In this document: positions 12,494-60,734 of the stretch, piece after piece | How positions within the stretch are numbered: the first letter of the stretch is position 1 | How the letters are laid out: the number at the start of each line of letters is the position of its first letter | Assembly (NCBI GenBank): GCA_000002445.1 | Contig: CP000066.1 | Coordinates: 1,568,001-1,632,000 of the forward strand | Direction of reading: 5' to 3' | Source: Trypanosoma brucei | Taxonomy: Eukaryota | Length of the DNA stretch: 64,000 bases | Program-made: the position numbers and the translations under genes | The notes under the pieces: model-generated | Told to the model about the DNA's origin: nothing | Seen by the model: only the letters and a program-made list of their open reading frames with translations | Databases searched by the model: none

Positions 12494-12527
<34 letters not shown>

Positions 12528-26700: not shown

Positions 26701-26730
26701 AGTATCCATTTAACCTACAATATCATGATT

Positions 26731-26757
26731 CCTACACCTTTATCATTCTTCCTTTAG
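26731..26757 (+). promoter_or_regulatory. Polypyrimidine tract plus AG: probable trans-splice acceptor 11 nt upstream of the array-gene ATG. Equivalent sites are at 28609-28635, 30421-30447 and 32301-32327
   Basis: cctacacctttatcattcttcctttAG lies immediately before gcgaaaacaaaATG in every unit. This implies a very short 5'UTR. Confidence 0.45.
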
Positions 26758-26767
26758 CGAAAACAAA

Positions 26768-35663: not shown

Positions 35664-36330
35664 TCAACACTCTGCCATGGGAGTTTGCTCATTAAACGAA
35701 CTGGTCAGAGTGCTTCCCCAATTCACAGACAACTCGGATAAATGCACAGTTTCATTAAACGTGTAGCAGAAAAAATGACTAATGCTTGGCATGCTTCCGT
35801 CCAGCATGAAAGCTGCGTACCTTCTATCTCCCTTGATCATGCCGAAGGGTCCGTCAGTTGGTTTCAAATATTAGCACTGCCATGCCGCAGAAATACGCAA
35901 CAATAGGCAACTCTTCCACATCACAATGCAATAACTTGTAGAGGATGAAAGAGCCAAAATTCTGAGATTTGCCAAACCCCGGGTTACCAATGGTAAGGTA
36001 TGCTCGTGGAAAATAAGGACATTCCGGTATAACACGTTGTGTACGCCATAACTCAATTCCACTTCTTACAACATTCCATACGCGGAACTCTTCTCTACGG
36101 ATGAATATGTTTTTGTTACTTCCGTCGGTAAACTTGGCTTATTATCACCTCATTTGAGATGTTAGAACCAATGCTTCAGCTTCTTCCATGCGCTCTGGTT
36201 TCTTCTCAACAGCTTCCTCAATTTAAGGGACAACATTAAGTTCTTCATTCTTCCACATTACATTGCCACCACGCGTTCCATCAACAAACTCCATCCCGAG
36301 CAGTTGAGTTTTGTTGTCCATTATAATGTG
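35664..36330 (-). pseudogene. Fragmented P-loop NTPase-like pseudogene (possibly retrotransposon-hot-spot-protein-like)
   Basis: The minus-strand translation is broken across at least 3 frames. One frame reads ...PRAYLTIGNPGFGKSQNFGSFILYKLLHCDVEELPIVAYFCG, which contains a Walker-A GxxGxGKS followed by a hydrophobic stretch and an acidic residue. The adjacent ORFs 35871-36062(-) and 35664-35867(-) continue in shifted frames. Confidence 0.25.
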
Positions 36331-39300: not shown

Positions 39301-39473
39301 TACTGGATTTAAGCCCTTCGATCATATTATCGTATGTCGTTTCGGTTATCCATGTACACTGTCACTGACAAAGGCAGTTACAGGTTGGTTAATGTTTCCC
39401 AGTCAAACCCACTGCGCGTAGTAACCACCTAATTCGATAGTTGTAGGCTAATATATGCTTGTGAATAATAGTG

Positions 39474-40361
39474 TTAGCAGAAGATGAATGTAAGAAGTGC
39501 GGGGTACAGCGTTGCATGTCTTCTCTGATCGACGCCATTGCCCTTTTGTGTACTTCCCCCCGAAGAGGAACCTTCATCCGCATCGGTTGTTATCACCTCC
39601 GAGGGCCTGCTCACTTCAGGTTTGGGAGCTCCGCCCCGCATGGCCGACGCTACGTAGTCATCATCCCGTCCTGACACTTGCCGCCGCGAAATCCCATCTT
39701 CATTCTCATCCATCGAATGTTTCCCCACAGCTTTCACTCCTTCCCCCCTTTCTCCCCCAGCAACTGAAGGCGCACTCTGTTGCTCCGTTGCGTGACGGCC
39801 GTCGTGTTGTGTCGCTAGCTCGACTGACATTCCCTTTCTCTTTTCCGCATCCCTGTTTTGCTCTTCCCCTACACGTGCGGGTCCTTGTGCTGTTTCACCT
39901 GACCGCACGTCGTCAACACTTCGTGACGGCGCTTGTCCAGAAAAATTTGGAGCATTGGTGGACGACCCTCTGTTGCTGCTTTGCGTCGTGCCGCCGCCTG
40001 TGTTATCAGCTCGTCGTACCCCGCCACCACGAGAATCGCTGCTAGGAAGCATGGGTTTGTGAGAGGAAGAACTTGAACTGGCAACTTCGGTCGGATGTGT
40101 TGGCCGACTTGTTCCCCTGGCTGCGGCAACCGTTTTCGCTTGGTTCTGCTCAGAGGTAGAAGGTGAAGCTGCGGATGTCACTCCACTTGCCGTGGGGCGA
40201 ACCTGTGAATCAACCGATTTACAATCGTCATATCCAGGAGGAGCGAAATACGTGTTGCACCTGCTGCGTCCCATCGAAACCTGCACTTCACTCGATAATA
40301 TAGTATAGGGCGTACTTGCTCTTAGGGTTAAAAGTAATGTTACCGCAATTTTGAGAGTCAT
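39474..40361 (-). CDS. Low-complexity S/G/T/R-rich putative secreted/surface (mucin-like) protein with signal peptide and hydrophobic C-terminus
   Basis: ATG at 40359-40361. Signal peptide MTLKIAVTLLLTLRASTP. The body is 295 aa of S/G/T/A/R/E-rich sequence ending ...HATLYPALLTFIFC. The segment is GC-rich and the opposite strand is also open, so coding status is uncertain. It has a paralog on the + strand at 53238. Confidence 0.4.
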   Translation of the reverse strand: MTLKIAVTLLLTLRASTPYTILSSEVQVSMGRSRCNTYFAPPGYDDCKSVDSQVRPTASGVTSAASPSTSEQNQAKTVAAARGTSRPTHPTEVASSSSSSHKPMLPSSDSRGGGVRRADNTGGGTTQSSNRGSSTNAPNFSGQAPSRSVDDVRSGETAQGPARVGEEQNRDAEKRKGMSVELATQHDGRHATEQQSAPSVAGGERGEGVKAVGKHSMDENEDGISRRQVSGRDDDYVASAMRGGAPKPEVSRPSEVITTDADEGSSSGGSTQKGNGVDQRRHATLYPALLTFIFC

Positions 40362-43300
40362 TTACCTTCTTGTTGCTATTGCCTCCCACAAAGACACTAA
40401 ACACAAATAAAAACGAAAAAATAGTTTCAGGGGAAGAAAGTACATAAATCCAAAAACTCTTCTATATTGTTTTTCCAAACGGAAACTTGGATCTACCGGC
40501 ATCGATAAATAGACTTCTTAGGCCTTTCTGGTAAATAAAGAAACGGACAATACATAAAAAAACATTATTCTTGCACGCAACTACAGTTCTAACAATAAAA
40601 CAAACGCAACGACATACCCCACTATCACATATAGCAATCATAACAATATTATAGGGTGGCTCTTCTTTCGCTGTATCAAAGCCCTCTAACCTTTTTGTAA
40701 AAGCCGTTTCAAGCGCACAGAGGGAAAGGAGACACATTATGGAGCCAAAAATGCTAAGCCTAACGTAAATAAATTATGACTAAATAAGATCTCATATTTT
40801 TTTATGATACAAAGTTGAAGCTGGAGGACAAACACACCGCAATCTGTGTTTCTTAGCTGTTTCAAACATGAAATACACTCGCATCGGTAATTCTTGTTTT
40901 ACTTTTCCGTTAATTGGGTTCTGATTCAGCAAGTGCAGTCCCGCCATCGTATTCAACAAATAGTTTTCACTGAATGAATCCCATGTATTAATAATCAATG
41001 GTGCTTCTCACCACCGCCCTTCATTCCTTTTTCTTCTTGGCTGGTGCTCAGTTCTCTGGCTTTGGCACCGCAGCCACCATGTCAATAAACTCATCTAACG
41101 GCACCTTTCTGAACGTTACACAGACCGACGACTGTTTTGTTAGCATCTCTTTGTGTTATTCTCAGTGAATGATGTTTCCGGCTTACTATCATCCCAGGTT
41201 TTATCTGCGTCAAAGGGGAGATGGTGTACTTGTCTGTTTAGTCCAAACTCCTTTTGTTGAGGAGCCGACCCATAATATGTGCAGTGGCACTGCGATGCGG
41301 TAATTCCATCATTGCAACACCTTCGACATCACGGACAGCTTATATCATTTTCAAAACATGAACCATAGAAGCTGATTGGACCACTTCCTTCCACAGTCCA
41401 ATCTCTTTAGCCCGGTGTAACGTGGCCGGCCCGTGACCAGCTGAATCACTGAGAAAACCACTCCGTTGATGAACACTTAAAAGAAAAAAAAGATTCTAAT
41501 GCCTGGGATACTCTCTGATCCCTTTCACACATGTCCTGTGATAATACCGGCGATGAGAGTGACAACGGTCTCTGGAGCACCATCTGCGTCACTTTCGCAC
41601 TATTAGCTGCGGCACAATTCACCTTCACTAGAGTTTTCCCTCCAACAAGAAGCTATCTAGTTGAGTTAATCCTGGGTCAACGGTGGCGCCTTCAGAACGA
41701 GGGTGATGCGTTCACGACTCACAAAAGCAAATACTCACAAACAATCCGCTAGCGCCACTTCTGCACGGGCAGGCATTCATTCGAGTTGGTGCAAACCACT
41801 GCGTGCTCGAAAGAGCTGACGGCGAATATCCACACGGGGAAATACAACCGTTGCGCACCGGCTCGCTCAAGCACGCGTTCTCCCCCTCCGGCGACTACTC
41901 TTTCCACGGGTTTCTATGTTCCCTCGGCCGCAGCAAAAGGTTAACAAAATTCGATACTCTTAGTCGATTTGTCTAGGGAATGAAAAAGCAGTTTTCCTTC
42001 AGTGAAAGCATTTTTCAGCAGTCTTCTCTGGACGAAGTTCATCGATTACGAAAATAAATCAGCTTTCGCGCAGCAACCTTGCTTATCTCCTTCCGCTTTC
42101 TGAACCAAGCCTCACCCCCATCGGTGGGCGAGAAGTTCCCTCGACACTTCTGTCAACTCAGGGTGCGCAAACGGTTAAAACATGCAGTCCTCGGCTCCTG
42201 GAATATTCACTGGCTGGCCTGTCCGTGTGCTTTGGATCCCTTTCTCTACATATCCGTTAAGTGTCGCATCCGCAGGTGCTTCGACATCAGCCCGCCCATG
42301 CGCAGCCCATGTTGAGGTTGGCGATTGACGCGGTGCAACAAATAACTTCGAAAGAGTTTTTTTTTCTGGCCACAACAAGCGGCACCCTAGGTTTCTCTAT
42401 TTACATTCGCCAAACAGTCTCAAGAAATACCCACCGCCCGTCCTCTCTTTACAAAGTTTGCATCCGTTTACTTTATTTTCAGCCGTGATCAGTCCTCCGT
42501 TTTTTGCGGGCAGTGCGATATCTTTGTTTTCAGCAGCATCTTGGACATCCCCGTGTTACGAACGGCAAGTGTATTGGCGCCCTTGGACTCATCCGCTCCC
42601 TTACTCAGGCTTTTTAAAAGCTCCCGACGGTGTTCAGGTGACATGTTGTTTCCGAAAACTCAGCCGATCCACCACTTTTCCCCACAAAACCCAGGAGGAA
42701 CGAAACTCATAGTGCGCAGAGCCTTCCATGTTGCCCCGTACCGCCGTACCGGATGCGATCCGACGTTTGAATGCTGCTGGAGGTCTTCACCGTTTTCGAG
42801 TGGATCGCACCGCGTCCTTTAAAGTCGGTAATGACGGGGAGGAGGCGCTGACTTCCAATTAATGCGTCGGTTTTGGGTTCTGTGACTTGCAAACTGCAGA
42901 GCCACGCTCATGTTACAAAAGTGCGATTTCAGGTTCTCAACCTTAACCCTTTGGTACGCAGAAGCCCTGTTTACGTTATTGTGAATACTCATCTGCCCTA
43001 ATAGCTGTTGGGCACTCGCTCTTGTTCACTTGCCCCCAACCTTCCCGTGCTTGTGTCAGGGGTTGTCCAAAGCATCCAGAGGCCACTGAGGGTCCGTCGC
43101 CGCTTGCAGGCACCAATGTAGCGGTCGTGTCCTCCAAAGGTTTCGCCGCCTTCTGACCCCCGAATATTTCCGTGCTGTGCTGAACGAGCGTCGACACTCT
43201 GTGAACTTTCATTTTAGGACAGACCAAGTTAACGATTGGCGTTCTCTTTTGCTCCGGGGCACCGCCCAAGGTTAGGAGTGGCCACAGGGCGGGTTTCCTT

Positions 43301-46300
43301 CGGTGTCCCAGTTAAGTGATGGGGCGATTCACAAGATGTCACACGCGGATCAGCATTTGTACACGCATAGGCATCAGCGCGAAAAATATTCTTCACTGAT
43401 ACTTGCCTGTAAACTGGCGGGTACGCAGCGCACAATTTCTCTTGCTTTTCGCCGCACTAAGAGTTGCGTGCTGGGACTGTGGTGAAATTTTCGGAACCGC
43501 CAGTTGGATCTGTTAGTTTATATCCGAGAGTTTGCGTTTTTCGGCAATATCCCTCTTGCGATGTATTGAGTCCGTCGTTTTGCGACCAGATATACTGTTG
43601 TTTCAATGATTATTCTGATACATCTTTTTGTTTTCTATTTGCGATGCCCCCTACTGTCACAATACTAGATAACATTCTGCTGCTTCAATGCGTATTGCAT
43701 GTTCTGTGTGCATATTTTCGTGTCCCAATCCTCTCTGTTAGAGGGAGTTGGAAGCGGCGAGAATAAGACATCTTCGGTGATCTCAATGTTCTGTTTTTTA
43801 CTTGGATCTGCATATGGGTGGTTGGAGGTTTGTATGTAGCGCTGCGTGATGGCCGTACTGCTACGGCAACGGTGTGTGTGTGTGCAGATGAAAGTGGCGG
43901 ATAACCCCTTGCATAAGTACATGTGAGTAGGTGGATATTCATATTTGTGGTAGCAAAAAGGCGCGGCGCGTGCGGAGGGAGGGAAGACACAGAAAGGCAT
44001 GGGGTCAATAAATCAAACAACTGCAGTGGGTGCGGGGCGAAAGGGCTATAAGAAAGAATGCTTAAAAACAACCAATAGCGACGGCGTGAACACTGCAGTG
44101 CTTGTACGCTTATGAAGGATGGCTTGCATTTATTCATTTTTTTTGCCACTGTAGAGCAGAGGACAAACTAATTCAAAAAGTAAGGAGACGGCGTCCACTT
44201 ATCTGTGTCTGCTTCTTTTAAGTGAAGAAGCTATCATCGAAATGAGTCGAGCAATCGTACAATCTGCTGTTTTAATAGTGCGACCAGTTGTTATCACGGA
44301 GAAATACCCAACTTCTTCTATAAATCCGAATGATGCGTGCTTCATCTCGACAAAAAGGTGCGGGTGAACTCTCAGAGAGGCAGTAGTAAATATCGTTTAG
44401 TTGTACTGTGACCAGACTTCCTTTGCCATCGGCCACATCCCTTTCGACCGCTGTAGTATTCGCACAACCCCAATTGGCTGCCCGAGCTTTGTAAAACTTC
44501 CACCATGCTCATTTACGATATGAAGATGGGGCACGTTTGCTTTGCTCAAACTTCGTTTCCACACGAACACACGATGAAGGACTCCCATACCGAGCGGAAA
44601 TTGGGGCCTTCGTGCGATGTTGAATTGGTGTGGAAAGCTCCTGGCGGACGCTAACGTGAAGGCCAAATGTATCAAGAGTGATCCCCTCCAGCGTGCATAG
44701 AGTCAAGGTGAAGTGCGTAATATAGGAAATAGGGAAGCTACATAAATGCAGTTAACGTTATAACCCTCATTTTTGTTGGTAGAATACTTTTGATGTGACT
44801 CACATTTATGTTTTAACTGATGTGATTACCCTACCGAATTGCATTTAATTCTGCAGACGCTTTGGACACCCTGAAACACATTATGGTCTGCTATTTCGGA
44901 TTTATTAATCGCCATTATTTTCAGGAGCCAGTATTTATTCCCATTCCGCGTTACCTCATCACAAATGTACATCGTGGCACTACCCTTTACGCTTTTCTAT
45001 CTTCGTATGTTCACCCTGTTAAAAAAAATTTTCTCATGGTGGGTTTGAACCACCCACTGTAATCGATTTGGGTGCCATTAATGAAGTGCGTGGTGCACCA
45101 TGACTAACTGACCCTCTATCTCTGTTAGCATTTTGCGGTTTAGTTTGTATGATGTTGGGTGATAGCATGCACACTTTGGTAATACTGCTTCTCCCCCATA
45201 TCTTCTTATCTTTCTTACGAACGGAAGAAAAGGATGGTTAGTATTACTATTTGGTTTGATGAAAACATGTTCTATCCATCGCTAGCCCCAACGTGTACTT
45301 AGCATTTGACGCGCATCTAAAATTGCACTTTAATGTGCCTGTGCCGTGGGTGCATATGCTCGGCGCCCTCCATGTTCGTTTTGTCAGTCACGTATATGCA
45401 CGTTGCTGTGTGATTACTTTGTTCTTTTACTGCGATGTGGTATTCACAAATGGAAGAGGTATAGATGCTGTTTCGTCCGTTATCGACATTTTGATTTCAT
45501 TGAAATGGGTCGTTAGTGTTTTAATGACTGTTATGGTTGCTTTCCAACTCTGTATAATTGCCAAGAGAATCTGTCAGGCAGTGTTACATGGCCCAACTCA
45601 ATGAATTTATGCCGTTCGTTGGATGACCTGACGAACTCTCGCAGGCGCAGTGCATGGTGTTCCGATCATCACATGCTGCTTCCACTAGTTATTTTGTGGA
45701 AACTGCTTTGTGTAAGCCAACATGAAACAATACTAAGAGTTGTAGCTGTTGAAAAACGTTGGAGGTGTACTTGGACTTCATGCTGTCTTGACGTGATGGC
45801 CTGAAGTAGTTTCTCTGGGCACGCAAACTGTTTCTTTCAGCCAAATGGCATACGTGAAACATCCAAGGGGGAATATACCCAGGGTATGGATCTCTAATGT
45901 TGCTTTGCTCAACATGAGATTTACATCACTTTATGTAAGCGAATAACAATGGGATAGGCATGCCTATAGGTTTTGTAAGTGTGTCTTTGTGTGTGTATTA
46001 AAGGTTAAATCTAATTGACCACAGTAATGGTCAATGCATTTAAATACTTTTTGACCAATGTTGCCTAGTTGACGAACACCCTATACCTTTGTGTGGGACA
46101 CATTTATATTTTGTTTTTGTTTTTGTTAAACTTCCTTAATGCAAAAGTACGTGAAGAATTTTTAGAATCATAATGCTCTATCATTGTTTTCACTAGCATT
46201 CTCATCGTTATCATTGCTTACGCATGTATCCTCACGAGTAAAGTGAAAGTTCACGAAAACAACGTCTTTAAATCTTATAGTGCCTCCTTTCTTTTAATCG

Positions 46301-49300
46301 GGCTACTCGGAGGGTGTGTTCTTAGAACATGAGTAAATCATGCAATCAACCTCAAGTAACTGAGAAGTGAAAATCATATGCGTCATACGCTTCTTGGTTT
46401 ACTGTTCTTGGTTTCCTGCTGAGGAGTTGGGTTTATTAATGAATTTGCCGATGGAAAAAAATAAAAATAGGATCTTACTCTTTATCCTACTTTTTCTATT
46501 TTTTTTTTTTTAACGCACGAAGTAGGTTGATGATGTCGGTTAAAAATTCCTAGAGGACTTCATTCTGTGCACAGAGATGTGCAAGAGCTGTGTGATAGGA
46601 TGTACGACATGGCTTCATCAGCTGCAGAAAATATGAACGTTTGGGATTTCTAAATATTCGGGGGAGCGGATGGAGTGTGGTGAACACATTTTGTGGGGCA
46701 TTTGTATACGGGCTCTCTATTCTCACCTGCATTGTGCACAGTGTTGCCCTGCATATATATTCCCTGAAAGGCAGCTGTATTGGTGTAGCGTAATGCGAAA
46801 TGTGATCCCGTACCCTGATGACCTGGTTGGTGAGCACTTAAAGATGTTAAATTTTAATGAGGATAATCCAGCCACGGTAAAGCTGTAGCATTATAGAAAC
46901 TTCTGAGATACAAGTTGCTATGTGTGGAAGCGAAGCGTTTCTTAAAAGATGCTGAGACTGAAATGACTGAAAGATCCTGCAACGGATGAAGCTGATGTTA
47001 TCAGGCTTGATCATTGTGCGACCAGAGAAAGGTACAAACAGAGTGTAACGTGAAGGTTTATGACAGTTGTCGATGCTCTCAGGTCAGAAAACATCAGGTG
47101 CAAATTATCTCTTAGAAAAGAACATGTTCTATACACAATAGCAACAGCAAAATCCACCACAGTATTCTGAATAGTACCCTAGGCATATGGAGGAAATCCA
47201 GGGGGGGGGGTGGTGATGCATAAGCTTGCGAATTATTTTCCCAATCCACATCTTCCCAAAAGATATAAAGGGTGAAAAACCGTGCGTGGCTAATCCCGGA
47301 GGAACGTGGGGGAAACATCAAGGTTGATTGAGCAAGTATGCTGCAATACATTAATATCTTCTGCCACAGACAACATAGAATTGATTGCATGTGTACCTTA
47401 ACACCAAAGGCACATAGATTTCTTTGCACGTTGCTCATTAGCAGCTGTAATGACAGTTATGTGGATGGAACGGAAAGCCGTTGACAGCGTAAAACAGTGT
47501 GAAAGGGAAAGTTGTAAGGACCAGTTGAGCTAATACCAGAAGACCATTCGCGACTTTGCAAGTGGAAATGATGCATGGTATCAAATACGCGATGACCCCG
47601 TAGCACATATGGTAGAGAAAAATGTGGTTGAAGCGCGATTTCGTACACAAAAAAAAAGTGATGTGTTGCACCGAGTTTATCTGAATGACAGGCAGAAAAG
47701 AGTGGTTTGTAGCAACCGGAATAGAGAGACATAGTATGAAATTGTAAGGTAGCTGTGGCGACTCAAACGTCAACGAGCCTGTGGTCACGAATAACTGATC
47801 GCTTCTGCAGGTGCCACCGTACAACTTCGCACTGTTCCACGACGGAGCTAAAACAACAACAACAACGAGACGCTTCTGGAAAATTTATCCATAAACAGGT
47901 CTCACTACAAAAGCGAATACAACTTATTATGGAGGCAATAAAGGATACATTCTGAATGGGATACTTCTTCAAGGATATTCCTGATTTTAGGGTTTGGTGG
48001 CAACCACATGGAGGAGAGGATAGGAACCCTGAGGTATTGCCTGTTATCGTGTTACTGTGGAAGGGATCCTGAAGACACATAATGGGCATGAGAAATGTTG
48101 CAAGCGCATGACTACCACATCCTTCATTGGGCTACCAGCGTTAGTGAGCGACAAGCAAAAATCCGCTTCAAGCATATCACTTTGCGCTTATACCTCACAC
48201 TGTCATATGCAAAATTGAGATGTGGTACTATGAGGCGAAAATAAAAGAGCAAGAGTCACAGCAAGGGTGCAAGGTAGAGCGTGTCGTATTCTGTCTGGAA
48301 CTCTCAGCTGATTCATGGTATTTACAATAACAAATCACTTAGTCACATGAAATCCGGGACACAACTGGTGGTGGCACCTAAACTACTGCCTAAGCGACTC
48401 TCCAAAATACTGTACATATAACAATATCAGTTGACCGTGCACAAATTAGAAGGGAGATGCATATGATACTGCTAAATGCCACTATGGACCACACGAGGAG
48501 GTGAACACAGAGAGGCAGAGAAGAAGAAAAAACAATAATATCTTTGCAGAATCATCAATTTGTACGATGTGCGGCATTGCGCCTAAAATTGCTTGTGGAA
48601 TTACTTCAGATTATACTGTGGTGGCACACACTAGTAAAATTGAGGTACGATTCCCCTCAAATCGATGCTACTGATAATCATGGAGAAGACGCGAATAAAT
48701 GTAGAATTTGTGCATTTATATTGTGCGAAAGAGGGTAGGCCTCGTAATACATTGTGGACCAACACACTGATGTAAACCATTGCTTGTGCTCACAGCGCAA
48801 CAAAGTCAAATGGGTATGTTGGTTCAATGCGAAGCACAGTATTATGGAACTAACGGAAAAATGTGTGCAGTTGCGCAGTAAAATAGAGGATCGGTGGTTT
48901 CACATTGAGGTCAGAAGAATTTCTAGCGATATAGCGGGAGTTGACACACGGCGGTACGCTGCTCCCAAGACCCGCTAACAACGTTAAAGGAATGTGCAAA
49001 ATCAGTGAAAAGACAAGTAATGGAATACGAAGATGCTGGAACAACGACATGTTCAACTCTCCCAGGAAATGAGAGGAATACAGTGTCGTGTTCACTACAA
49101 CGCATACGCTGTAGCTTCTTAAAAGAATTGTTGGGAGAGTTATATTCCCGCGTAAGGGCCCGATGTTACGGAAAAAAAACTACCAAGAGCAGCACTGGTG
49201 GCGACGACAAGCACTTTCGGTTAGTCACAGAGGGATAAAGGAATATCGATTGTGACTCCAGTTATCTTTGATGAACGGAGCATACGGTGCTCTTCGTGTC

Positions 49301-52300
49301 GCTACAAATATGCATCGGAAAGCGGAAAGTCAGCCCAATTCAAGAAAACAGGCATTGCGGGCCTTTTCACAAAATGTCGAAACTCGACAACATCGTTCTG
49401 GAGGTTCACACTTATGTGTTGAGCCGGCGTTTTGTGTACCCAGGATGTGGCAGGGAGTGCCTTTCGGTAGAAAACATTTCCACGGGTAAGGGTGCTCCGC
49501 ATGGAACACATGTGACCGAGGAAAGTGCCCACCCTGGTGAGTGGGAAGAGAATTCGTATAATAAGCTAATGTGCCAGACCTTGAAGAGTCTCCACTGTTA
49601 CTGTTGGCTCAGGGCAAGCGACGTTAAAAGATTGTATTCAAAAGATAGCTTATTTTCTACTTGCGGTAGAGCAAATTCTCACCTGCACAAGGGTCTCCTT
49701 CGTGCGCGAAAAACGTAAACACTTGAAGACATGCAAGTGTATCACGTAGAGCCGCATTTTCGAGTTTGGTTCTTATAAAGGTACGTCGGATCACCTTCAC
49801 TAAATTCCACCTGGCTCGCAACCGCGAAAGGTATCTGGGAATTTCCACAAACTCGGCAACGTGGTAGCGAATGTTGTATGATTGGATAGGTGTTCGCATT
49901 TACACCCCTGTTGTTAATGATTGTGTTCAGCGTATACGTGCAGCAATTTATTAATGGCATACCCTCTACAGTACACAGTTTAATAGAAGAAAAAACCCAC
50001 TCATGGAGCACAATATTGGTAAGGAGTTTCGACCCCATCAGTTTACAATACCCGTAATAAAAATAGAATTATCAGAGTATAAAATTTACTGAGCGTCTTT
50101 CGCATACGAATTTTGGTGCGGGTGAAAAAAATAGGACTTGCGACGTATTTCTCACATGAATTTATCTTATGTAATTGGATGACTAAAGTGGAGGAAATAA
50201 AAATGTGGATGAAACCAGTTAGATTTATGGTGGAGGTGGCTTTGATGACGACGAGTGTTTCCTATTGCGGAGTGAATCGTAGTTAATTGATAGAAGTTTG
50301 AAATACTGTGTGGCCTTGTTGGTTTGGCAGAGCGAACAAATTCGTCGCCGGACGATATGAAAGACACAAACATATCCTCTCCAAAGGAAAAGTCATATAA
50401 GTAATGTTCGGGGCGACCGCTGATGATGTGAGCAAGGTGGGTTCGGGAGGGGGGGGGGGCTCACCAAGAACTGGATTGCAAACGGGGCAGTGGAGTCCAG
50501 ACTTTCGAAGCGGAAAGACACTTGTGAAACATCTTGTTTGCTTGTGTAAAGGAAAGAAGCAACATCGACTGCAGAGAAGCGGGGACATTTGTTGTGCGGG
50601 AAACAACGAGCAGCTATCTACCCACCAGTTGGTATCACCAAAAAAATATGACAAGACGTCAGAGACTTACAAACTAGGTGTGAGGCAGGACATGGAAAAG
50701 GTTTACCAACGGAAGGTGAATGCCACGAAGAGAAAAAACAATCCAAGACAGTATGAAAAAGCACAGTCTCAAAGGAACACACCCACTATACCTAGGGGGT
50801 ATGAAGAGTATGGGCTGTGCGCTTGTAATGGATTCATAATGGATCACGACGGTATTTGCGTATTGCATCAAGAGGATCTGATAGGGACAATGCGAGTGGC
50901 ATCAGGTGGCTTGGCAGTCTCGGAGATCTAGTGAGAGGTTAAAACCATGGTTGAAGGAGTAAATAGCAACACAAATCCAAAAACCAAGGAAAATCTGCAA
51001 AACAATAAATCAAACGGATCAACACCAAGTGAAAAATCAAAGAAGGAAATACCTGTCAAATCAGCCAGATCAAGTCCAAGTGGAAAATCAGGCACCCAAC
51101 CAACTACCAGTACAGACACATCCGACACTACTACAAGATCGCCAGAAAAGCTGGGGAGTTCCACAAAAGTTATTTCACAACCTTCAAGGACGCTTCTACT
51201 GCTACCCATGTAGGGCGGAGTAAAATTCATATTCCTTTTTCATTTTTTGTGTTCCTGTCGAAAAACTAAAAACGGATTTTCACGAGAAAGCACAGAAAAA
51301 CAAAATGGAAAGAGGGGGAACGCGAGTATGCGTGCATTCCACTCATTCGTGTTTCTGTTCAAAGCGACTAGTTAGGATGTCCGAAACAAATAAAGGAAAA
51401 AGAAGTGCGTCAAGGGAAGGCGTTGACAAGGGAGTTTAAGGCCATTTGAGATCGAACAGGCAGGGACGTTGGGGCAGTTATTGTAAAATCCGAAACGTGA
51501 GGGGGTGAAATGAACTGAAGCACCCGAGCAAGTAGGGTATACTGCCAATACCCGGCTCATACTTTTGAACTGCGAGAGGGCGACACGTTGGATTGCTGTT
51601 TTGGGGTTTGTCCGGGGGGTTTGAGGAAAACAAAAAAATAGCTGTGGAGTGTGAGAGCCGCCAGGGCAGCACACAAATAACAACAGGCTGGAGCGGTGGA
51701 AGGGGCCACCGGCTGATAATGGCACAACAAAGGTATTAACCGCGTCTGGGTCTGGTTATAATTGAAGGGAAAGGCGCTAACTATGCGCTCTCATTAAATT
51801 GGTGGGACAGTGGGGCGAAAAAAGGACCAAAAGGTAAGAACAAATATAAGTTTTTGACGTTTGGAGCCTCGGGGACATTGAAAGATGAGGAATCATATGA
51901 AGCACCTGAGGGGTCATTAGATAAACATGATGAGAGAGGTATTCACGCTCATCAGCGCGCAGAAATGAAGTTTAGCGGAAGGATGTTAAAGGTAAATGCC
52001 AGTGACAAAAGAGATCCTCATAGCTCTTTGAACTAGTGCTCTTCGTGGAAAAAATGATAAACGAAATGACAGTCGACGCATGCGTCTGTTTGCAGGCACT
52101 ATAATTCCAAATTCGGTTACAATTATATAAGCTGTGGACAGGGCATATGTTTCAGCAGAGTTTCGTTTCTGGAAACGTCTGCGTACGCTACATTAATTTT
52201 CTTTTAATCTCCACCAGGTTTTTAGGTGATATTTTTCTGCGACGCCATTAATTTCAACTGTTTATATCTCTTTAAGTGTCTCAAACTTTCTTAGAGCGGA

Positions 52301-53237
52301 GACTCCACACATCAAACCCACTATTCTTACAAAGATAATGAGCGAAGCAATAACACGAGGGGAAAATTTGAATGCGGTTTATCACAACTGGTTCCTGCCC
52401 TTAGTTGGTGAGGGTTGGATAAATATGTCGGAAGAGGTTTCTTTCATGCAAGATAAGCATCTTATGCTAATTACTGCTACTAATCGCACGAGAATGACAA
52501 ATGTTAACGAGTGACGACAAGAAAGTGTGCAGCTTTTTGGACGACACGTGAATGGAGAGCATGCGAAATGTAAAAGCGAAACAGGATGGAATGTGAACTG
52601 AAGGAAGGGGAAGTGAGCACCGCACAAAGCACCAAAAGTTAACACAAGGTAGATCATGTTGTGAGAGAATTGGACGAGTCACGGTTTCAATATTTGGATA
52701 TAGCGGTATTCGTTAGATGATTTATTGTTGTCATTTCTATCACAGATTTTGTAACTTCCCTCTATCTTCTCTTCAATAAAGCTTCTGCACCTGATCTCTG
52801 TATCTTTTTTTTTTTTTTACAAAATTCGTTATTCATTGGCGGGTGACATTGTTTTTTCCGTGTTTACTCTTAATGCATAATTGGGAAAATTATAGTTACT
52901 GTTTGTGTTGTTAAAGTTATTAAATCTCGTGATTATCAAAGTTTTTCTTGATAATAGTTTGTACTTAAAGTCCAAAAGTACCTAATATAGTAAAATTTAA
53001 AGAAGTGACGAAAAAGGAGAACGTGGCAAACGCGGATGCTGAGTCTCAATTGATTTATACGAAGTGATTTGGAGATTAATGCTTGCCACAGTTAATCAAA
53101 TTACCCCGGACAACCTAGGTGAACTCATCATGTATATGCATGTGTATCTTCCTATTTCGAAACTTCTCTCAAATTTTAAATTTTCCAAAGCGGAATCTTC
53201 TTTATTTTTGAGGAGTAAAAACTCAAGGAAAAGGGTA

Positions 53238-54149
53238 ATGTTCGAAGTGTCAGTGGCACTTTTGTTGACACTGAGATCGTGTATGGTGCCTGTTGAGTCA
53301 AAAAGTGCTTCTGTGACAGGATGGAGAACGGGAGTAACGTTTTCGTCTGAGAACAGCGGGTGCGATCAATTTTGGTCCCCCAAGGAGGGGAAGTTGGTAT
53401 GCGGATCCCCAGTCGTAAACCAGGGCAATTCCGGCTCGAAGGCACCTTCCACCGGTCCGGCTTCAATGGGGAAAGCACAAAACACGATACGGGGTGACAG
53501 AGCAGCCAATATTATACATCAAAGAACGCAGGAAAATCCAGCTCCGAGGTCAGGGGATTATAATCAATCGGGATCTGCCGCTTCGAGTGTCTTTCCAAAG
53601 GATGAACGACAAGCCGACAGTGTAAGTGGTGCTGTAAGTCAGGGTCACCACGAGAAGTCGTCTGAAGACTAATCAAATTTGAAACAGTCAGGAGCCACAG
53701 CTACCGGAGGCGAGGAAATGCCAGAAAGTAAACGAAAAAGCCTTGGGAGAAGCGACTATGCGATCCAGTCCAAGGGGTTGGCTGTGGCAGCACCAGGGGA
53801 AGCAAAGGGTGGTAAAGGTCATGTGCCGCAGCTGGCACCGCAGGGTGAGGTTTCGGGGCCCGAGCGAGTAAGTACCGTGGAAATGGAGTCTGTAAGGGGC
53901 CAGCAAACTGAAAACGAGGGAGAGGGTATTTCAGAAGGGCAAGTAACAGGGCACAACAAAAAGCACACAGCACGCGTGCAAGAAAGGAGTACAGCCTCTG
54001 GACCTGAGCGAAAAAATACACTGGAGGTGACGACAGGTAATATGGATGAGCAGGAGTCTGGAGAAAGCAGTGTGCAAGGGGAGAGAAGCACAGCGCGCAA
54101 AAAGCATGTAGTGATACTTTCCGCAGTATTAGGCCTCATCTGCTTCTGA
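53238..54149 (+). pseudogene. Paralog of the 39474-40361(-) gene, interrupted by a single in-frame TAA at 53670-53672. Either a pseudogene or a read-through/sequencing-variant gene
   Basis: ATG at 53238 gives MFEVSVALLLTLRSCMVPVES..., which matches the signal peptide MTLKIAVTLLLTLRAS of the minus-strand gene. The body is S/G/Q/E-rich. The frame reopens immediately after the TAA (track ORFs 53064-53672 and 53679-54149 share one frame) and ends ...KKHVVILSAVLGLICF, a hydrophobic tail like ...LYPALLTFIFC. Confidence 0.35.
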
Positions 54150-57100
54150 AACTCATTGCCGCAAATCTGTGCATGAGCGTGAAAACGTTTAATAAGGCCA
54201 ACGCCGTGCGAAGTGGACACAGATGAGAATCGGTAACTAACCCCCAACTGATTTCTGCAGAGAACGTGTGTGTGTAGTGCTGTAACGAGGTATGCTAAGG
54301 TGATCGAGCAGCTCCAATTTGGTAATAACGAGCGTGCAAAAACTGAAGGGAGGGTTGGAAGAGAGGAAAAGTAATTTGATGTTATTGGCTGTACAAGGCG
54401 AATAGAGTCAACATGAAAGACAGCACAGATGCAGAGCAATAAATAACAGTATCGAAAAATTGATTATACATGAAGAGACTTAGCTTCAACACTATTGGAG
54501 AAGCCGTGGTGGATTTTTTTTGCTTTTACAATTGGGACATTGAGAACCGGTTGACACGCAGGGGGAAACAGATAACAAAAGGGACTTCGCGGAGTCGGTG
54601 AGTTAAAATGTGGGAATATGACTAGGCATTTCCACGACCAAGTTTGAGGTGATATCGATAACATTAAAATACGTTTAAATAAAGCGAATTAACGGAACCG
54701 ATAAAGAATTTAAACGACAGGTAATCAGCGAGTAAGCTAATTTCACAAGGCAGATATACGTGAAGCACTTAAACTATGTGAGAGTATGCCACAAAAACGA
54801 GTGAATTGAACGAGGAAATTGATGATTGAAAGCGACACCTCACAGATATTATGTTAATTGGCAAACGTAACTTATTTACAAGGGCATCCTTGCGTTTGTT
54901 TTCTTTTGATTGTTTTTGCACCTTTATCGCCGCAACACGCTCAGTTAAACCAGAATCGCACATTGTAGAAGCTGTTAAAGCCCGCGTCCTTCTAAATTCA
55001 AAAAAATGAAGCTGCAATGAGGAAACGCTGGTAACTGCACTGCAAAGCTTTTTTATTTTTAACTATGCGATATACATAATCACCCAGATGTGTGTTGGCA
55101 TCACGGACCTGAAAACCGATGTTATCCCCTCTGTTTTACTTCTGAAATACCAAGCTTTGAATTTTTTACCGTTTATCTTTTTCGTCATGTGCTGATGTAG
55201 TGTTGCCTAGCTTTGGTAATAAGGCGACTGTGAAGGGTAAATGTATTACTTGAAGCAAGTTCCTAATATCGGCAACTGGTGCTTCTGGTGAGGGTGAAGT
55301 GTGTTGTCATACATCGTGTGAAACCTTAATGCCGGATAGAAAAAGCGCAACAATGAGACTTGTCGAGGACGTTTAAATAAACTGTATAATTCGGGAGAAT
55401 GCCATATCCACAGGATCCAGCTGATGCAATGAGTCAGACCATGTCGAGTCTACAGTAACATGACGGAATTAGGGATGGAGCTGTTTGCTGTGCATGGCAC
55501 TGGAGACGGTAAAGGCGGAGAGGCACTGCAAAACGTGTTAGGTATAAACCAGGAGTATTTCCAATGGGGGTTGTTCACAAATGTTAAACGCGAATACGAA
55601 CCGAAAATTTTCAGCGATGTGAAAGAAAATTGGAAAATGCCGAAGGGAGCAGTTGATGTAATTCAGATGCAGATGCTGAACGTGAGGGTCACGTGCGTGG
55701 AAGGTTGTGGTCCTCAACCTCCATTGCAGATGGTAGAAACAACAAACCTTCCGAAGCGGGCTAGCTCGCCTGGCAAGCTGACCGAAATATCTGTGCGGAG
55801 GTTTCTGCTGAGGATAGGGAATGTACTTGCTTTGGCTTGGTGGCGGTCAGTTAACCAGATATTGTGGAATGCTGAAAGAAGACAAGTGAAATGGACACGG
55901 TAATGCATCCAGGCCTCGCCGTGTAGCCCATATTGAGCGCACCGGAACATGCCCGAGAGGTATATAAAACTGTGAGACGGAGACAAGTGGAACTACAGGC
56001 GGTATCATCACCGGGGTAAGGACAAGCAGAGAAGCATTAAGAGCATTCTGCTTGGGATTGGTGTTCGCACGGGTGTGCCGCACAGCAGGGACATGCTGGC
56101 TCTCAGTCCCCCCAAATGATAAAGACACGACAAACATAGGAAGTCAGTAGTCAAGCATCGTGACAGGAGTGATGGTTGAATGAGAAAGGAGACACACGGT
56201 GAAGGAGGCGCAGCTGACCACATTTGGCAATGTTGCACACAAGCGCGCAATAAAATGCTATTTCACCCTCAGAGCCAAGGGCAGGATGTTCCGAGGGATA
56301 GCCGGTAGACCGAACTCCCCAATGCAACCTATGCGTAAACATTTTGATGTGTTGGGTTTGTAGCATGGACGGATGTAGCCACACGCTGAGAGCAAACAAA
56401 TCATCGTTAGTGGTGCCAGGTGCCAATCGTGGCAACAGTTTCCCCAACCATGGTTCTCTGAAAGCCAGTGGGCCCAAGAAGGGGGAAACGTGCGGTAAAA
56501 AGTGTTGCCATTTGGGACGCTGCGCGCCGTCACATCCGGACTGAGGGTCCCAACAAGAAAGATTTATCATGTTGATCTCTGCTGTTGACCAGCCGCCTTC
56601 AATACTTCTAGCCGTTCTGTCCAGCATCACCCTTTTCTACTCAGGTTTCAACCATATCCATGGAAACTGCACTTCGCCGCTGCTCGACACGAATAGCATT
56701 GATACTGCGAACAGTACAAATTCTACTATCTAACAAATACATTCATAAATATTTCCCCTGTTCTATAAAAAATCAAATAGATTTATGGGTGCAAACTCGC
56801 ATGCTTTTCAACTGATAATTTCTTTATCTGGAGTGTCCCTGTCTTGGTTATCTTAATTGTGAGTGGTAGTGACCGTGGTTGTCGCTCCATCATTTGTGTT
56901 GTAGGGTAGTGGGGTGCGTTAATTCTTTCTGCATGTGAAGTAAGGAAGAAATATTTGGTTTTGTGCTCACAAGAGTAGTTTTGTTGCCATTTATTTTTGG
57001 TTATGCAAAGTACTGGTGTGCAGTGAAGATAAATGAGAATTCATTGAAAGGATGAGCGGTTACGTATGTAACATCCGTTTTTTTCTACCAGCGTATCTCT

Positions 57101-57933
57101 AAGGATGGTGACTGGTGGGTGTGGCAAATGATCTAAATGGAGGTAATAACAGGGAGGGTCACTCGTTATTTTGGAACTGTTCTATTTTTTGGTGTGTTGG
57201 TGGCTAACATAATATCCCATCATGTCACCATATAATCAGGGGCTTCAGTAATGAGCATAATTGTTTGAGACGGTATTTTGAAAATACAACTTTTGTCTTT
57301 TCTAGTGTATGGCTTAAGAAAATGGAAGTCGATAGGTTGTAAATGCTCACGAATAGTGGGCTAAAGAGTATTGTTAATACGTGTTTGAGAAGAGGAGGAT
57401 ATGCTAAATGAGGCTCAGCAGCAGGATTGTGTGCATTGGATAAGAGCAACACATGTGTGCAAATCAAGCGCGTAATGTGCTAACCAAAAAAGCCATAAAG
57501 TTACAGCTGAAGCCGATGGAACCGAGGGAGGATGTGGAAAAACACAACATGAATGTGCAAGTACTCAGTAAGAGGATGGACAAGCTTGTTGAGTAAATAA
57601 AGAAATTTCAAGGAAAAGCCAGTTGGAAGTGTAATAACCTTGTATGGTTATTAGTAAAGTGGAGTCATTGGATGCATAAATTAGGGAGAGTGAGGTAACC
57701 AGTGGGAAAACAGCTGTAAGGGAGCTTAATGTTTATGTCCAGCTTGAAAGAATACACTCATCTAACTGTATGTATTGGGATGTGCTTCCTGCTTTGTTGG
57801 ATGCTGCTGTAATTGGTTTGTGTCAGGCACTTATTAATTTCGATACATTGATGTATATGTCTGTTGAATATGTCTGCTAATATCAGTAATGACTGTGATG
57901 ATAAGTTTTTTTCCCTCTTTGACTAATTAATGT

Positions 57934-59306: not shown

Positions 59307-59487
59307 TTTAATATTACATTACCAAATATGTTATGTTATGTTTTCTTTTGTTTTTTTCGCTTCTTTGTTGCTGCGTGTATGTGGTATAATATATATGTGT
59401 ATTTGTGTTGATGTGTTTGTTAATTTCTCGTGAGATGTAAATGTTTTAAATTATCCCATATAAACTTGTTTTGTTTCTAGATAAATA

Positions 59488-60605: not shown

Positions 60606-60734
60606 TTCAATGTTATATTTTACGCTACGGTTCTGTTATTGGTATTGACCGTTTGTGATACCCGCTGCTTTTTTGTGTAATGGAGGGTATGTGTTTTTCT
60701 CTTTTATATCTTTCGTCACATGTGATTGTAGGTA

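What the first reader, a model, noticed from the sequence alone, without database searches (positions are those of the whole stretch)
39474..54149. Divergently oriented pair of low-complexity surface-protein-like paralogs flanking a 12.7-kb ORF-poor region; one copy carries a single in-frame stop
The minus-strand ORF 39474-40361 and the plus-strand ORF 53238-54149 share almost the same signal peptide (M..VTLLLTLRAS versus M..VALLLTLRSC). Both have an S/G/E/Q/T-rich body and a hydrophobic C-terminal tail ending F(C).

The plus-strand copy is interrupted only by one TAA (53670-53672), and the frame is open on both sides. The two genes point away from each other across 40362-53237, which contains no ORF longer than 175 codons. 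It does contain G-homopolymers (47201-47212, 50445-50457) and an AT-rich block around 46.0-46.6 kb.

This geometry is what a divergent strand-switch / RNA pol II transcription start region looks like in trypanosomes. Alternatively the interval is a graveyard of decayed genes.
Basis: partly seen in the sequence, partly recalled or inferred. Interest (0 to 1): 0.5.

Follow-up and report, generated by a model that had tools for sequence, protein, structure and literature searches.

The report
Two annotated ESAG9 genes, trypanosome strand-switch
The two look-alike ORFs are already-annotated members of the Trypanosoma brucei ESAG9 surface/secreted protein family, one working gene and one pseudogene with a single stop codon, pointing away from each other across an ordinary non-coding strand-switch region near the end of chromosome 3.

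Summary
The window is T. brucei brucei TREU927 chromosome 3, positions 1,568,001-1,632,000.

- **Minus ORF (39474-40361):** this is Tb927.3.5760. It belongs to the ESAG9 family (cell-surface phylome Family 2), is trans-spliced 35 nt upstream of its ATG, and is de-repressed when REG9.1 is knocked down.
- **Plus ORF (53238-54149):** this lies inside Tb927.3.5790, annotated as "ESAG pseudogene". It is a full-length ESAG9 homologue with one TAA where the closest relative has Leu. It still gives RNA.
- **Relationship:** the two are old paralogs from different ESAG9 subclades. They share 25% protein identity and no DNA similarity, so this is not a local inverted duplication.
- **The 12.7-kb interval:** I found no detectable gene relics, tRNAs, Rfam RNAs or repeats. 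It does hold two annotated "hypothetical" ORFs (Tb927.3.5770 and Tb927.3.5780).
  - Strand composition flips at about 43.3-46.5 kb.
  - G10 and G11 runs, the top coding-strand motif of T. brucei Pol II start regions, lie on the plus strand only.
  - Genes on both sides give mRNA.

A divergent Pol II start region is therefore the best reading, but it is inferred. The one genome-wide start-site list I could read does not call a unit here. Novelty: none. Interest: low.

The parts
39474..40361 (-). Tb927.3.5760, an intact ESAG9-family gene (295 aa; cell-surface phylome Family 2)
   Evidence: 100% identical to AAZ10606/XP_844165/Q57VG8, which UniRef names 'ESAG9 protein'. The coordinates 1607474-1608361 reverse and the label 'Family 2' come from the REG9.1 S2 table. 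It scores 123 bits against an HMM of named ESAG9 proteins.
40396..40398 (-). Spliced-leader acceptor of Tb927.3.5760. The AG is at 40398-40397 on the minus strand and the first mRNA base is 40396, giving a 35-nt 5'UTR.
   Evidence: Kolev 2010 Table S12 places the SAS at chr3 1,608,396 with a 5'UTR of 35 nt. The AG and an upstream T-rich tract are visible in the sequence.
53238..54149 (+). ESAG9-family pseudogene. It is annotated as Tb927.3.5790, 'ESAG pseudogene', spanning 53079-54149.
   Evidence: The frame has one stop. It scores 188 bits against the HMM of named ESAG9 proteins. Its best relative is the T. equiperdum ESAG9 protein P0007, at 38% identity and E = 9e-46. None of the three translations of this copy that I looked up is in the protein collection.
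53670..53672 (+). The single in-frame TAA, at codon 145
   Evidence: In the family alignment it sits where P0007 has Leu, so it is one base away from TTA.
40362..53237 (.). Non-coding interval between the two genes; the inferred divergent strand-switch region
   Evidence: No tRNA and no Rfam family. No Pfam hit in any stop-free segment of 58 aa or more. No ESAG9 relic. No repeats or inverted repeats. It is collinear with T. b. equiperdum over 33.5-49.8 kb.
43267..46511 (.). Zone where strand composition flips. The cumulative GC-skew minimum is at 43267 and the cumulative purine-skew minimum is at 46511.
   Evidence: It includes the AT-rich block at 46.0-46.5 kb and the T13 run at 46499-46511.
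47201..47210 (+). G10 run on the plus strand
   Evidence: GGGGGGGGGG is the top coding-strand 10-mer at the 5' end of T. brucei start regions. The run is not conserved in T. b. equiperdum.
50449..50459 (+). G11 run on the plus strand, lying inside the ORF of Tb927.3.5780
43685..44137 (-). Tb927.3.5770, an annotated 150-aa 'hypothetical protein' that is probably not a real gene
   Evidence: Exact match to AAZ10607, in a cluster of one. The ORF is broken by indels and stops in T. b. equiperdum. RNA level is low.
50404..50931 (+). Tb927.3.5780, an annotated 175-aa 'hypothetical protein' with RNA detected
   Evidence: Exact match to AAZ10608, in a cluster of one. No Pfam hit. Mean RNA-seq level is 8.08.
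35691..36365 (-). Tb927.3.5750, an RHS pseudogene downstream of Tb927.3.5760 on the same strand
   Evidence: Pfam RHSP P-loop, E = 1.1e-10, in segment 35857-36138 on the minus strand.
56569..61709 (+). Rest of the plus-strand cluster: ESAG pseudogenes Tb927.3.5800, 5810 and 5820, then the ESAG1 gene Tb927.3.5830 (60735-61709)
   Evidence: Pfam VSG_B and ESAG1 hits. An ESAG1 relic lies at 56593-56727. ESAG1 is an exact match to AAZ10609.

Best explanation
This is the right-hand core-to-subtelomere transition of T. brucei TREU927 chromosome 3. Two anciently diverged ESAG9-family genes head two short, oppositely oriented clusters of T. brucei-specific, expression-site-related genes and pseudogenes.

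**Shown**
- Tb927.3.5760 (minus strand) is an intact gene. It encodes an N-terminal signal-like segment, a conserved Cys pair, a long low-complexity body, a conserved C-terminal block and a hydrophobic tail.
- Its mRNA is trans-spliced at window position 40396.
- Like other ESAG9 mRNAs, it rises when the repressor REG9.1 is depleted.
- Tb927.3.5790 (plus strand) is a full-length ESAG9 homologue inactivated by one nonsense codon. It is still represented in RNA-seq.

**Inferred**
- The interval between them is non-coding DNA that acts as a divergent strand-switch region. Dispersed, bidirectional Pol II initiation somewhere between about 41 and 50 kb would feed both clusters: the minus cluster (5760, RHS pseudogene) and the plus cluster (5780, ESAG9 pseudogene, further ESAG pseudogenes, ESAG1).
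- Abundance of the ESAG9 mRNAs is then set after transcription, through their 3'UTRs and REG9.1, not by the promoter.
For: **Identity and location**
- The minus ORF is a 100% match to TREU927 protein AAZ10606, on a 1,653,225-bp contig.
- Four splice-site plus 5'UTR values from Kolev Table S12 fix the offset at 1,568,000.
- The coordinates of Tb927.3.5750 to Tb927.3.5830 in the REG9.1 S2 table coincide with the window ORFs.

**Family membership**
- A profile search of 1.84 billion proteins returned 16 proteins. All 10 whose names I looked up are from T. brucei or T. equiperdum, and 9 of them carry ESAG9 or ESAG names.
- Against an HMM of named ESAG9 proteins only, the plus copy scores 188 bits and the minus copy 123 bits. 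The best of 1000 shuffles scores 13 bits.
- Nearest relatives differ for the two copies. The plus copy is closest to P0007 (38% identity). The minus copy is closest to P0005, P0006 and P0004 (27-32%). The two copies share only 25% with each other.
- There is no DNA-level similarity between the coding sequences or their flanks.

**Expression**
- A spliced-leader acceptor site is mapped for Tb927.3.5760.
- Tb927.3.5760 has logFC 1.7 on REG9.1 RNAi and is labelled Family 2. Tb927.3.5790 has logFC 0.73 and a mean level of 9.37. Tb927.3.5780 to Tb927.3.5830 all have RNA.

**Strand switch**
- Purine skew is negative from 35.0 to 46.5 kb and positive on either side.
- Runs of nine or more G occur at four places in the window, all on the plus strand. 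There are 8 overlapping matches, against an expectation of 0.19 from shuffles.
- G10 is the top coding-strand 10-mer in the 5' fifth of 199 start regions, 132 versus 17.
- In 43-47 kb, TSR-enriched 10-mers number 21 on the plus strand and 2 on the minus strand.
- The interval has no tRNA, Rfam, Pfam or ESAG9 relics.
Against: - Kolev et al. 2010 Table S14, based on 5'-triphosphate RNA in procyclic forms, ends chromosome 3 with the unit Tb927.3.4900-Tb927.3.5730. It lists no unit starting at Tb927.3.5760/5770 or Tb927.3.5780. It also lists no novel transcript in the interval.
- There is no G run, and only weak GT-rich signal, on the minus strand for the minus cluster.
- The G10 run at 47201 is interrupted in T. 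b. equiperdum.
- TSR-type 10-mers are even denser at 10-13 kb, inside a unit that Kolev treats as continuous. They are therefore not specific.
- No histone-variant, Pol II or nascent-RNA data could be examined here.
- Plus-strand RNA could in principle come from read-through of the long upstream plus-strand unit.
Confidence: 0.75

Rival explanations
1. Read-through model. The plus-strand genes Tb927.3.5780 to Tb927.3.5830 are transcribed by Pol II that fails to stop after Tb927.3.5730 and runs through the whole region. Only the small inverted island (Tb927.3.5760 plus the RHS pseudogene) needs weak initiation in the interval. On this view there is no true divergent promoter pair.
For: Kolev Table S14 lists no unit start here. 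The upstream plus-strand unit ends only about 6 kb before the minus-strand island. The plus-side genes have moderate RNA levels.
Against: Purine and GC skews are clearly reversed over 35-46.5 kb. This argues for long-term dominant minus-strand transcription there. Tb927.3.5760 is well expressed and properly trans-spliced. G runs lie on the plus strand just upstream of the plus cluster.
Confidence: 0.15
2. The interval is a graveyard of decayed genes, degraded beyond recognition, rather than a functional start region.
For: Purine excess at 47-52 kb (up to +212 per kb) is as strong as in neighbouring coding sequence. Pseudogenes are abundant on both flanks: the RHS pseudogene and four ESAG pseudogenes. 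The two orphan 'hypothetical' ORFs exist only in TREU927.
Against: No Pfam domain was found in any of the stop-free segments of 58 aa or more that lie in the interval. There was no hit to an ESAG9 HMM, no tblastn hit to any window protein and no repeats. The interval diverges from T. b. equiperdum about as much as its flanks do, and less than the N-terminal part of the ESAG9 gene.
Confidence: 0.07
3. The TAA is a sequencing or strain-specific artefact, and Tb927.3.5790 is really an intact second ESAG9 gene.
For: There is only one defect. It is one base away from the Leu codon TTA, at a position where the closest relative has Leu. The frame is otherwise open over its full length, and RNA is present and responds to REG9.1.
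Against: The gene is annotated as a pseudogene in the table that the 2017 study used. No intact homologue from any sequenced T. brucei-group strain appeared in a search of 5.8 billion proteins. None of the three translations of this copy that I looked up is in the collection.
Confidence: 0.1
4. The two ORFs are chance open frames in low-complexity DNA.
For: The composition is low-complexity (rich in S, G, E, Q and T). There is no Pfam family. The word-index search with the plus copy found nothing.
Against: Both give strong family HMM scores compared with shuffles. The trans-splice site is mapped. RNA-seq shows expression and regulation. A T. b. equiperdum homologue has dN/dS of 0.53.
Confidence: 0.01

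Closest known systems
ESAG9 family (expression site-associated gene 9; cell-surface phylome Family 2) of Trypanosoma brucei
   Same: Both ORFs align end to end with named ESAG9 proteins. Shared features are the signal-like N-terminus (...LLLTLR...), the conserved Cys...Cys motif, a variable low-complexity body, a conserved C-terminal block and a hydrophobic tail. Tb927.3.5760 is labelled Family 2 and is de-repressed by REG9.1 knock-down together with other ESAG9 genes. The family is described as highly diverse, specific to T. brucei, only occasionally located in expression sites, and stumpy-enriched.
   Different: Neither copy lies in a telomeric VSG expression site. GenBank names the minus copy only 'hypothetical protein, conserved'. 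The plus copy carries a nonsense codon. Stumpy-form enrichment of these two particular genes was not seen in the texts I could read. Tb927.3.5760 is not among the eight ESAG9 genes listed by Jensen et al. 2009.
Divergent strand-switch regions / dispersed Pol II transcription start regions of T. brucei (Siegel 2009; Kolev 2010; Wedel 2017)
   Same: Genes point outward on both strands. The intervening stretch is non-coding and several kb long. Strand composition flips. G10 and GT-rich 10-mers lie on the coding strand of the plus side. mRNAs are made on both sides.
   Different: It is not in the published list of Pol II units. No G run lies on the minus side. The interval is long: 12.7 kb between the ESAG9 genes, or 6.3 kb between the annotated orphan ORFs. 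It flanks pseudogene-rich, subtelomere-like clusters rather than housekeeping units. Chromatin marks were not examined.
Chromosome-internal or subtelomeric ESAG/VSG-related/RHS islands of T. brucei
   Same: The neighbourhood contains a VSG-related gene, an RHS pseudogene, an ESAG9 gene and an ESAG9 pseudogene, three further ESAG pseudogenes and an ESAG1 gene. It lies within about 45 kb of the end of the chromosome assembly.
   Different: No VSG expression-site promoter, 70-bp repeats or telomere repeats lie within the window. The genes are interspersed with unique non-coding DNA.

Membership tests
ESAG9 family (Fam2) | Significant full-length sequence similarity to proteins named ESAG9 | tested here: met
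   Against an HMM built only from 13 ESAG9/ESAG-named proteins, the plus copy scores 188 bits (E = 1e-59) and the minus copy 123 bits (E = 1e-39). The best of 1000 shuffles scores 13 bits. A profile search of 1.84 billion proteins returned ESAG9-named hits in the ten looked up, nine of which carry ESAG9 or ESAG names.
ESAG9 family (Fam2) | N-terminal hydrophobic signal-like segment followed by a conserved pair of cysteines | tested here: met
   The alignment shows both copies sharing the ...(L/F)LLTL(R/I)... block and the C-x(n)-C columns. No signal-peptide predictor was available, so cleavage was not tested.
ESAG9 family (Fam2) | Conserved C-terminal block ending in a short hydrophobic tail (candidate GPI signal in some members) | tested here: met
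   The plus copy ends ...ERSTARKKHVVILSAVLGLICF and the minus copy ...VDQRRHATLYPALLTFIFC. These align with ...AHKRHxxILSAxLxLxxx of named members. GPI addition was not tested.
ESAG9 family (Fam2) | Co-regulation with the family: repressed by REG9.1 and enriched in stumpy forms | tested here: inconclusive
   In the published S2 table, Tb927.3.5760 has logFC 1.7 (adjusted P 0.0099, 'Family 2') and Tb927.3.5790 has logFC 0.73 on REG9.1 RNAi. Stumpy enrichment of these two genes was not found in the papers read. The neighbouring orphan Tb927.3.5770 is listed in a table under that paper's section on stumpy-up-regulated transcripts.
ESAG9 family (Fam2) | Location in a telomeric VSG expression site | tested here: not met
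   Both copies lie at chr3 1.607-1.622 Mb, among unique DNA. The literature states that ESAG9 genes are only occasional expression-site components, so this is the historical naming feature rather than a requirement.
Divergent Pol II transcription start region | Flanking genes on opposite strands pointing outward, each producing processed mRNA | tested here: met
   The splice acceptor site of Tb927.3.5760 is. RNA-seq levels for Tb927.3.5760 and for Tb927.3.5780 to Tb927.3.5830 are.
Divergent Pol II transcription start region | Strand-asymmetric composition switching sign inside the region | tested here: met
   The cumulative GC-skew minimum is at 43267 and the purine-skew minimum at 46511. The convergent switch is at about 35.0 kb.
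Divergent Pol II transcription start region | G runs and GT-rich 10-mers on the coding strand at the 5' end of each start region (Wedel 2017) | tested here: inconclusive
   Plus side: G10 at 47201, G11 at 50449, and 21 versus 2 TSR-type 10-mers in 43-47 kb. Minus side: no G run and only 5 such 10-mers in 40-42 kb. The G10 is not conserved in T. b. equiperdum.
Divergent Pol II transcription start region | Enrichment of 5'-triphosphate RNA ends, or listing as a Pol II unit start | tested here: not met
   In Kolev 2010 Table S14 the last chromosome 3 unit is Tb927.3.4900-Tb927.3.5730. No unit begins at Tb927.3.5760/5770/5780. The data are from procyclic forms only, and terminal ESAG/VSG-rich regions are generally not covered by that table.
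Divergent Pol II transcription start region | H2A.Z/H2B.V, H4K10ac and BDF3 enrichment | not testable with these tools
   No ChIP-seq tracks or coordinate tables could be reached. Siegel 2009 is not held.
Unitary pseudogene | Full-length homology to a coding family plus a disabling mutation | tested here: met
   There is one TAA at codon 145, in an otherwise open 303-codon frame that aligns end to end with ESAG9 proteins. It is annotated 'ESAG pseudogene'. None of the three translations of this copy that I looked up is in the protein collection.

The most novel reading that the evidence does not exclude
The interval could hold a weak, developmentally gated start region that is not called in procyclic forms. 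It would switch on two T. brucei-specific, ES-like clusters in transmission (stumpy) stages. Alternatively, the nonsense-truncated Tb927.3.5790 could still yield a functional 144-aa secreted N-terminal ESAG9 fragment. Either would be an exception to the view that trypanosome Pol II initiation is unregulated, or to the pseudogene label.
Probability: 0.06. Interest if true: 0.45.

Novelty: already known. Interest (0 to 1): 0.08.

Why it matters
It matters little beyond confirming existing annotation. Both genes, the pseudogene status and the family assignment are already in TriTrypDB-derived tables, and the ESAG9 family is an established stumpy-form marker.

The only open point is whether this core/subtelomere-boundary strand switch is a bona fide Pol II start region. 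Existing public ChIP-seq and RNA-seq tracks can answer that in minutes.

The locus does give a tidy example of three things:
- ESAG9 paralogs sitting at the head of short terminal gene clusters;
- fast, mosaic divergence of an ESAG9 gene between T. brucei-group strains;
- a pseudogene that is still transcribed and still responds to the family's repressor.

Tried and rejected
**Searches that found nothing**
- The word-index protein search with the plus copy found nothing. Homology only emerged from the exhaustive profile search and local BLAST/HMM work.
- An exact-sequence contig look-up for the TREU927 protein failed. Only the T. b. equiperdum locus L001 was retrieved. It stops at window position ~49.8 kb, so the orthologous state of the TAA could not be checked.
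- Within the interval I looked for tRNAs, Rfam families and Pfam domains in stop-free six-frame segments. The scan covered 134 segments across 33.4-53.2 kb, and its only significant hit was the RHS pseudogene outside the interval.
- Also negative there: ESAG9 relics, similarity to any window protein, and tandem, direct or inverted repeats.
- A search for shared elements in the 5' and 3' flanks of the two copies found only chance-level short matches.

**Methods that did not discriminate**
- Polypyrimidine-tract polarity was uninformative because coding strands are purine-rich. I used skews instead.

**Ideas rejected**
- A recent local inverted duplication is rejected. The pair shares 25% identity, each copy has closer relatives elsewhere, and there is no DNA similarity.

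**Papers not available**
- Siegel et al. 2009 and Monk et al. 2013 are not held.
- No supplements are held for the RBP33 paper.

Full report
**What the window is.** Pfam scans of the large ORFs gave SPT16, enoyl-CoA hydratase, an NF-X1 zinc finger, a protein kinase, trypanosomal VSG_B domains and ESAG1. The organism is therefore an African trypanosome. The minus-strand ORF of the finding is 100% identical to T. brucei brucei TREU927 protein AAZ10606/XP_844165/Q57VG8, on a contig of 1,653,225 bp.

Splice-site positions and 5'UTR lengths in Kolev et al. 2010 Table S12 fix the offset exactly. For Tb927.3.5660, 1,580,614 + 93 gives an ATG at 1,580,707, which is window 12707. For Tb927.3.5630 and Tb927.3.5640 the same arithmetic gives window 4763 and 5986. 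The window is Tb927_03 1,568,001-1,632,000, and it ends 21 kb before the end of the assembled chromosome.

**Checking the observation.** The 295-aa minus ORF at 39474-40361 and the 303-codon plus frame at 53238-54149, with a single TAA at 53670-53672, are as described.
- The pair aligns over its full length at 25% identity, E = 9e-10 with composition correction.
- In a tblastn of the whole window, each finds only the other.
- The longest ORF in the interval is 175 codons.
- The G runs are real but slightly mis-placed. They are G10 at 47201-47210 and G11 at 50449-50459.
- The AT-rich block is at 46.0-46.5 kb, with GC 0.33-0.36.
- The DNA is not GC-rich.

A profile built from the pair plus the T. 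b. equiperdum homologue was searched against 1.84 billion representative proteins. It returned 16 hits. I looked up the names of ten; all are from T. brucei or T. equiperdum, and nine carry ESAG9 or ESAG names.

To avoid circularity I built an HMM from 13 ESAG9/ESAG-named proteins only. The plus copy scores 188 bits and the minus copy 123 bits, while the best of 1000 composition-matched shuffles scores 13 bits. The alignment shows the family hallmarks in both copies:
- a signal-like N-terminus;
- a conserved cysteine pair;
- a variable low-complexity body;
- a conserved C-terminal block;
- a hydrophobic tail.

Pfam has no model for this family.

The supplementary RNA-seq table of Rico et al. 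2017 lists Tb927.3.5760 at 1,607,474-1,608,361 reverse, labelled 'Family 2', the cell-surface-phylome family that contains ESAG9. [quoted passage not shown] These are exactly window 39474-40361 and 53079-54149. Both features of the finding are therefore already annotated.

**Relationship between the two copies.** Each has closer relatives elsewhere than its neighbour.
- The plus copy is closest to T. equiperdum ESAG9 P0007 (38% identity, E = 9e-46), then to P0008, P0009 and P0012.
- The minus copy is closest to P0005, P0006 and P0004 (27-32%).
- To each other they are 25% identical.
- Nothing is similar at the DNA level between the coding sequences, the 5' flanks or the 3' flanks, and no inverted repeat links them.

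They are ancient paralogs from different subclades that happen to head two opposed clusters. They are not the arms of a recent inverted duplication.

**The stop codon.** The TAA is the only defect. In the family alignment it sits where the nearest relative has Leu (…EKSSEPLSNAEQ… against …EKSSED*SNLKQ…). It is thus one base away from TTA. None of the three translations of this copy that I looked up is in the protein collection, and the 5.8-billion-protein search found no intact orthologue in any strain.

The gene nevertheless gives RNA, with a mean level of 9.37 against 10.44 for Tb927.3.5760. It also rises modestly on REG9.1 knock-down, logFC 0.73. A sequencing error cannot be excluded from the sequence alone, but I rate it unlikely.

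**Expression of the intact copy.** Kolev et al. mapped a spliced-leader acceptor for Tb927.3.5760 at 1,608,396 with a 35-nt 5'UTR. In the window this is base 40396. It is preceded on the minus strand by AG (40398-40397) and a T-rich tract. On REG9.1 depletion its mRNA rises by logFC 1.7, together with other ESAG9 genes. The 'chance ORF' reading is excluded.

**What lies between the genes.** The interval 40362-53237 contains no tRNA and no Rfam family. I scanned 134 stop-free six-frame segments of 58 aa or more, taken across 33.4-53.2 kb, against Pfam; none of those in the interval had a hit. The scan's only significant hit, an RHS P-loop at 35857-36138 on the minus strand, lies outside the interval. 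There is also no ESAG9 relic, no similarity to any protein of the window and no repeats.

Two orphan ORFs are annotated.
- **Tb927.3.5770** (43685-44137, minus; AAZ10607) is disrupted by indels and stops in T. b. equiperdum and has near-background RNA. It is probably spurious, although a microarray study lists it in a table under its section on stumpy-up-regulated transcripts.
- **Tb927.3.5780** (50404-50931, plus; AAZ10608) has RNA at level 8.08.

Each forms a protein cluster of one.

**Is it a divergent transcription start region?**

Evidence in favour:
- Strand composition flips. Purine excess is positive up to about 35.0 kb, negative from 35.0 to 46.5 kb, and positive again afterwards. The cumulative GC-skew minimum is at 43267 and the purine-skew minimum at 46511, next to the AT-rich block and a T13 run.
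- Runs of nine or more G occur at four places in the window, all on the plus strand, giving 8 overlapping matches against 0.19 expected from shuffles. Wedel et al. 2017 Dataset EV1 shows GGGGGGGGGG as by far the most coding-strand-biased 10-mer in the 5' fifth of 199 T. brucei start regions, 132 versus 17.
- Scanning the window with that list gives 21 plus-strand against 2 minus-strand hits in 43-47 kb.
- Processed or abundant RNAs exist on both sides. The minus-strand gene has no other plausible source of transcription than the interval.

Evidence against, or missing:
- Kolev's list of Pol II units ends chromosome 3 at Tb927.3.5730 and calls nothing here. No novel transcript maps to the interval. 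Those data come from procyclic forms, and that table generally stops short of terminal ESAG/VSG-rich regions.
- The minus side lacks a G run.
- The G10 is not conserved in T. b. equiperdum.
- The same 10-mers are even denser at 10-13 kb, inside a unit treated as continuous.
- No chromatin data could be read; Siegel et al. 2009 is not held.

I therefore treat the start-region reading as the best inference, at about 0.6, and not as a demonstrated fact.

**Neighbourhood.**
- The minus cluster is Tb927.3.5760 followed by the RHS pseudogene Tb927.3.5750 (35691-36365). It meets the long plus-strand unit convergently at about 35 kb.
- The plus cluster is Tb927.3.5780, the ESAG9 pseudogene, three further ESAG pseudogenes (56569-60605, including an ESAG1 relic and a VSG_B-domain ORF) and the ESAG1 gene Tb927.3.5830.

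This is a typical T. brucei-specific, expression-site-like island at the core/subtelomere boundary.

**Comparison with T. b. equiperdum.** Locus L001 is collinear with window 33.5-49.8 kb at about 88% identity, in a mosaic ranging from 75% to 98% per 500 bp. The most divergent 500-bp block over the gene and interval up to 49 kb is the N-terminal part of the ESAG9 gene (74.7%), between flanks at 95%.

The gene pair has dN/dS of 0.53 overall. In the first 60 codons dS is 0.69. This looks like exchange with other family members, or an old haplotype, rather than simple positive selection.

**Verdict.** However, the objects are known: an annotated ESAG9-family gene, an annotated ESAG9 pseudogene, and an ordinary non-coding strand-switch interval. 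The only unsettled point is whether this boundary region is an active Pol II start region. Public tracks that I could not access can settle it.

Noticed in passing
window 24952-33399 (+): A tandem array of five GPI-type surface-protein ORFs, Tb927.3.5690 to Tb927.3.5730 (cell-surface phylome Family 6, T. brucei-specific). Three copies are 100% identical (353 aa), one is 84% identical and the first is only 40% identical. Each of the four 353/354-aa copies carries a roughly 299-aa antisense 'shadow' ORF.
   Followed up: partly
window 10000-13000: The densest cluster in the window of TSR-type GT-rich 10-mers: 46 on the plus strand against 16 on the minus. It comes with G10 (10920-10929), G9 (11879-11887) and a GC trough of 0.32, between the kinase gene and the glycosyltransferase gene Tb927.3.5660. 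It looks like an internal start region, but Kolev Table S14 treats Tb927.3.4900 to Tb927.3.5730 as one unit.
   Followed up: partly
window 33539-49810 versus L001 16804-537: About 10% nucleotide divergence between TREU927 and T. b. equiperdum at this locus, in a mosaic of 75-98% blocks. From my own knowledge this is far above the usual divergence within the T. brucei group. The first 60 codons of the ESAG9 gene have dS of 0.69. This suggests an old haplotype, a paralogous segment or gene conversion.
   Followed up: partly
window 43685-44137 (-): The annotated gene Tb927.3.5770 is not conserved as an ORF in T. b. equiperdum, where it has indels and stops. It forms a protein cluster of one and is likely a spurious gene model. 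Even so, a 2009 microarray study lists it in a table under its section on stumpy-up-regulated transcripts.
   Followed up: yes
window 35691-36365 (-): An RHS (retrotransposon hot spot) pseudogene with a recognisable P-loop (…GNPGFGKS…). It sits at the convergent junction between the long plus-strand unit and the short minus-strand cluster.
   Followed up: partly
window 56569-60605 (+): A run of three annotated ESAG pseudogenes. It includes an ESAG1 C-terminal relic (56593-56727, 51% identical to the intact ESAG1 downstream) and a VSG_B-domain ORF (58206-59306). All have RNA-seq signal.
   Followed up: partly
window 47000-52000 (+): This stretch shows purine excess on the plus strand (up to +212 per kb) as strong as in neighbouring coding sequence. 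It has no recognised coding family; the only annotated ORF in it is the orphan Tb927.3.5780 (50404-50931). The cause is unexplained; it could be transcription-linked mutation bias or very old decayed coding DNA.
   Followed up: no
window 735-765 (+): The SPT16 ORF opens at ATG 735. The published splice site plus 5'UTR length implies an annotated start at 765, thirty bases downstream.
   Followed up: no
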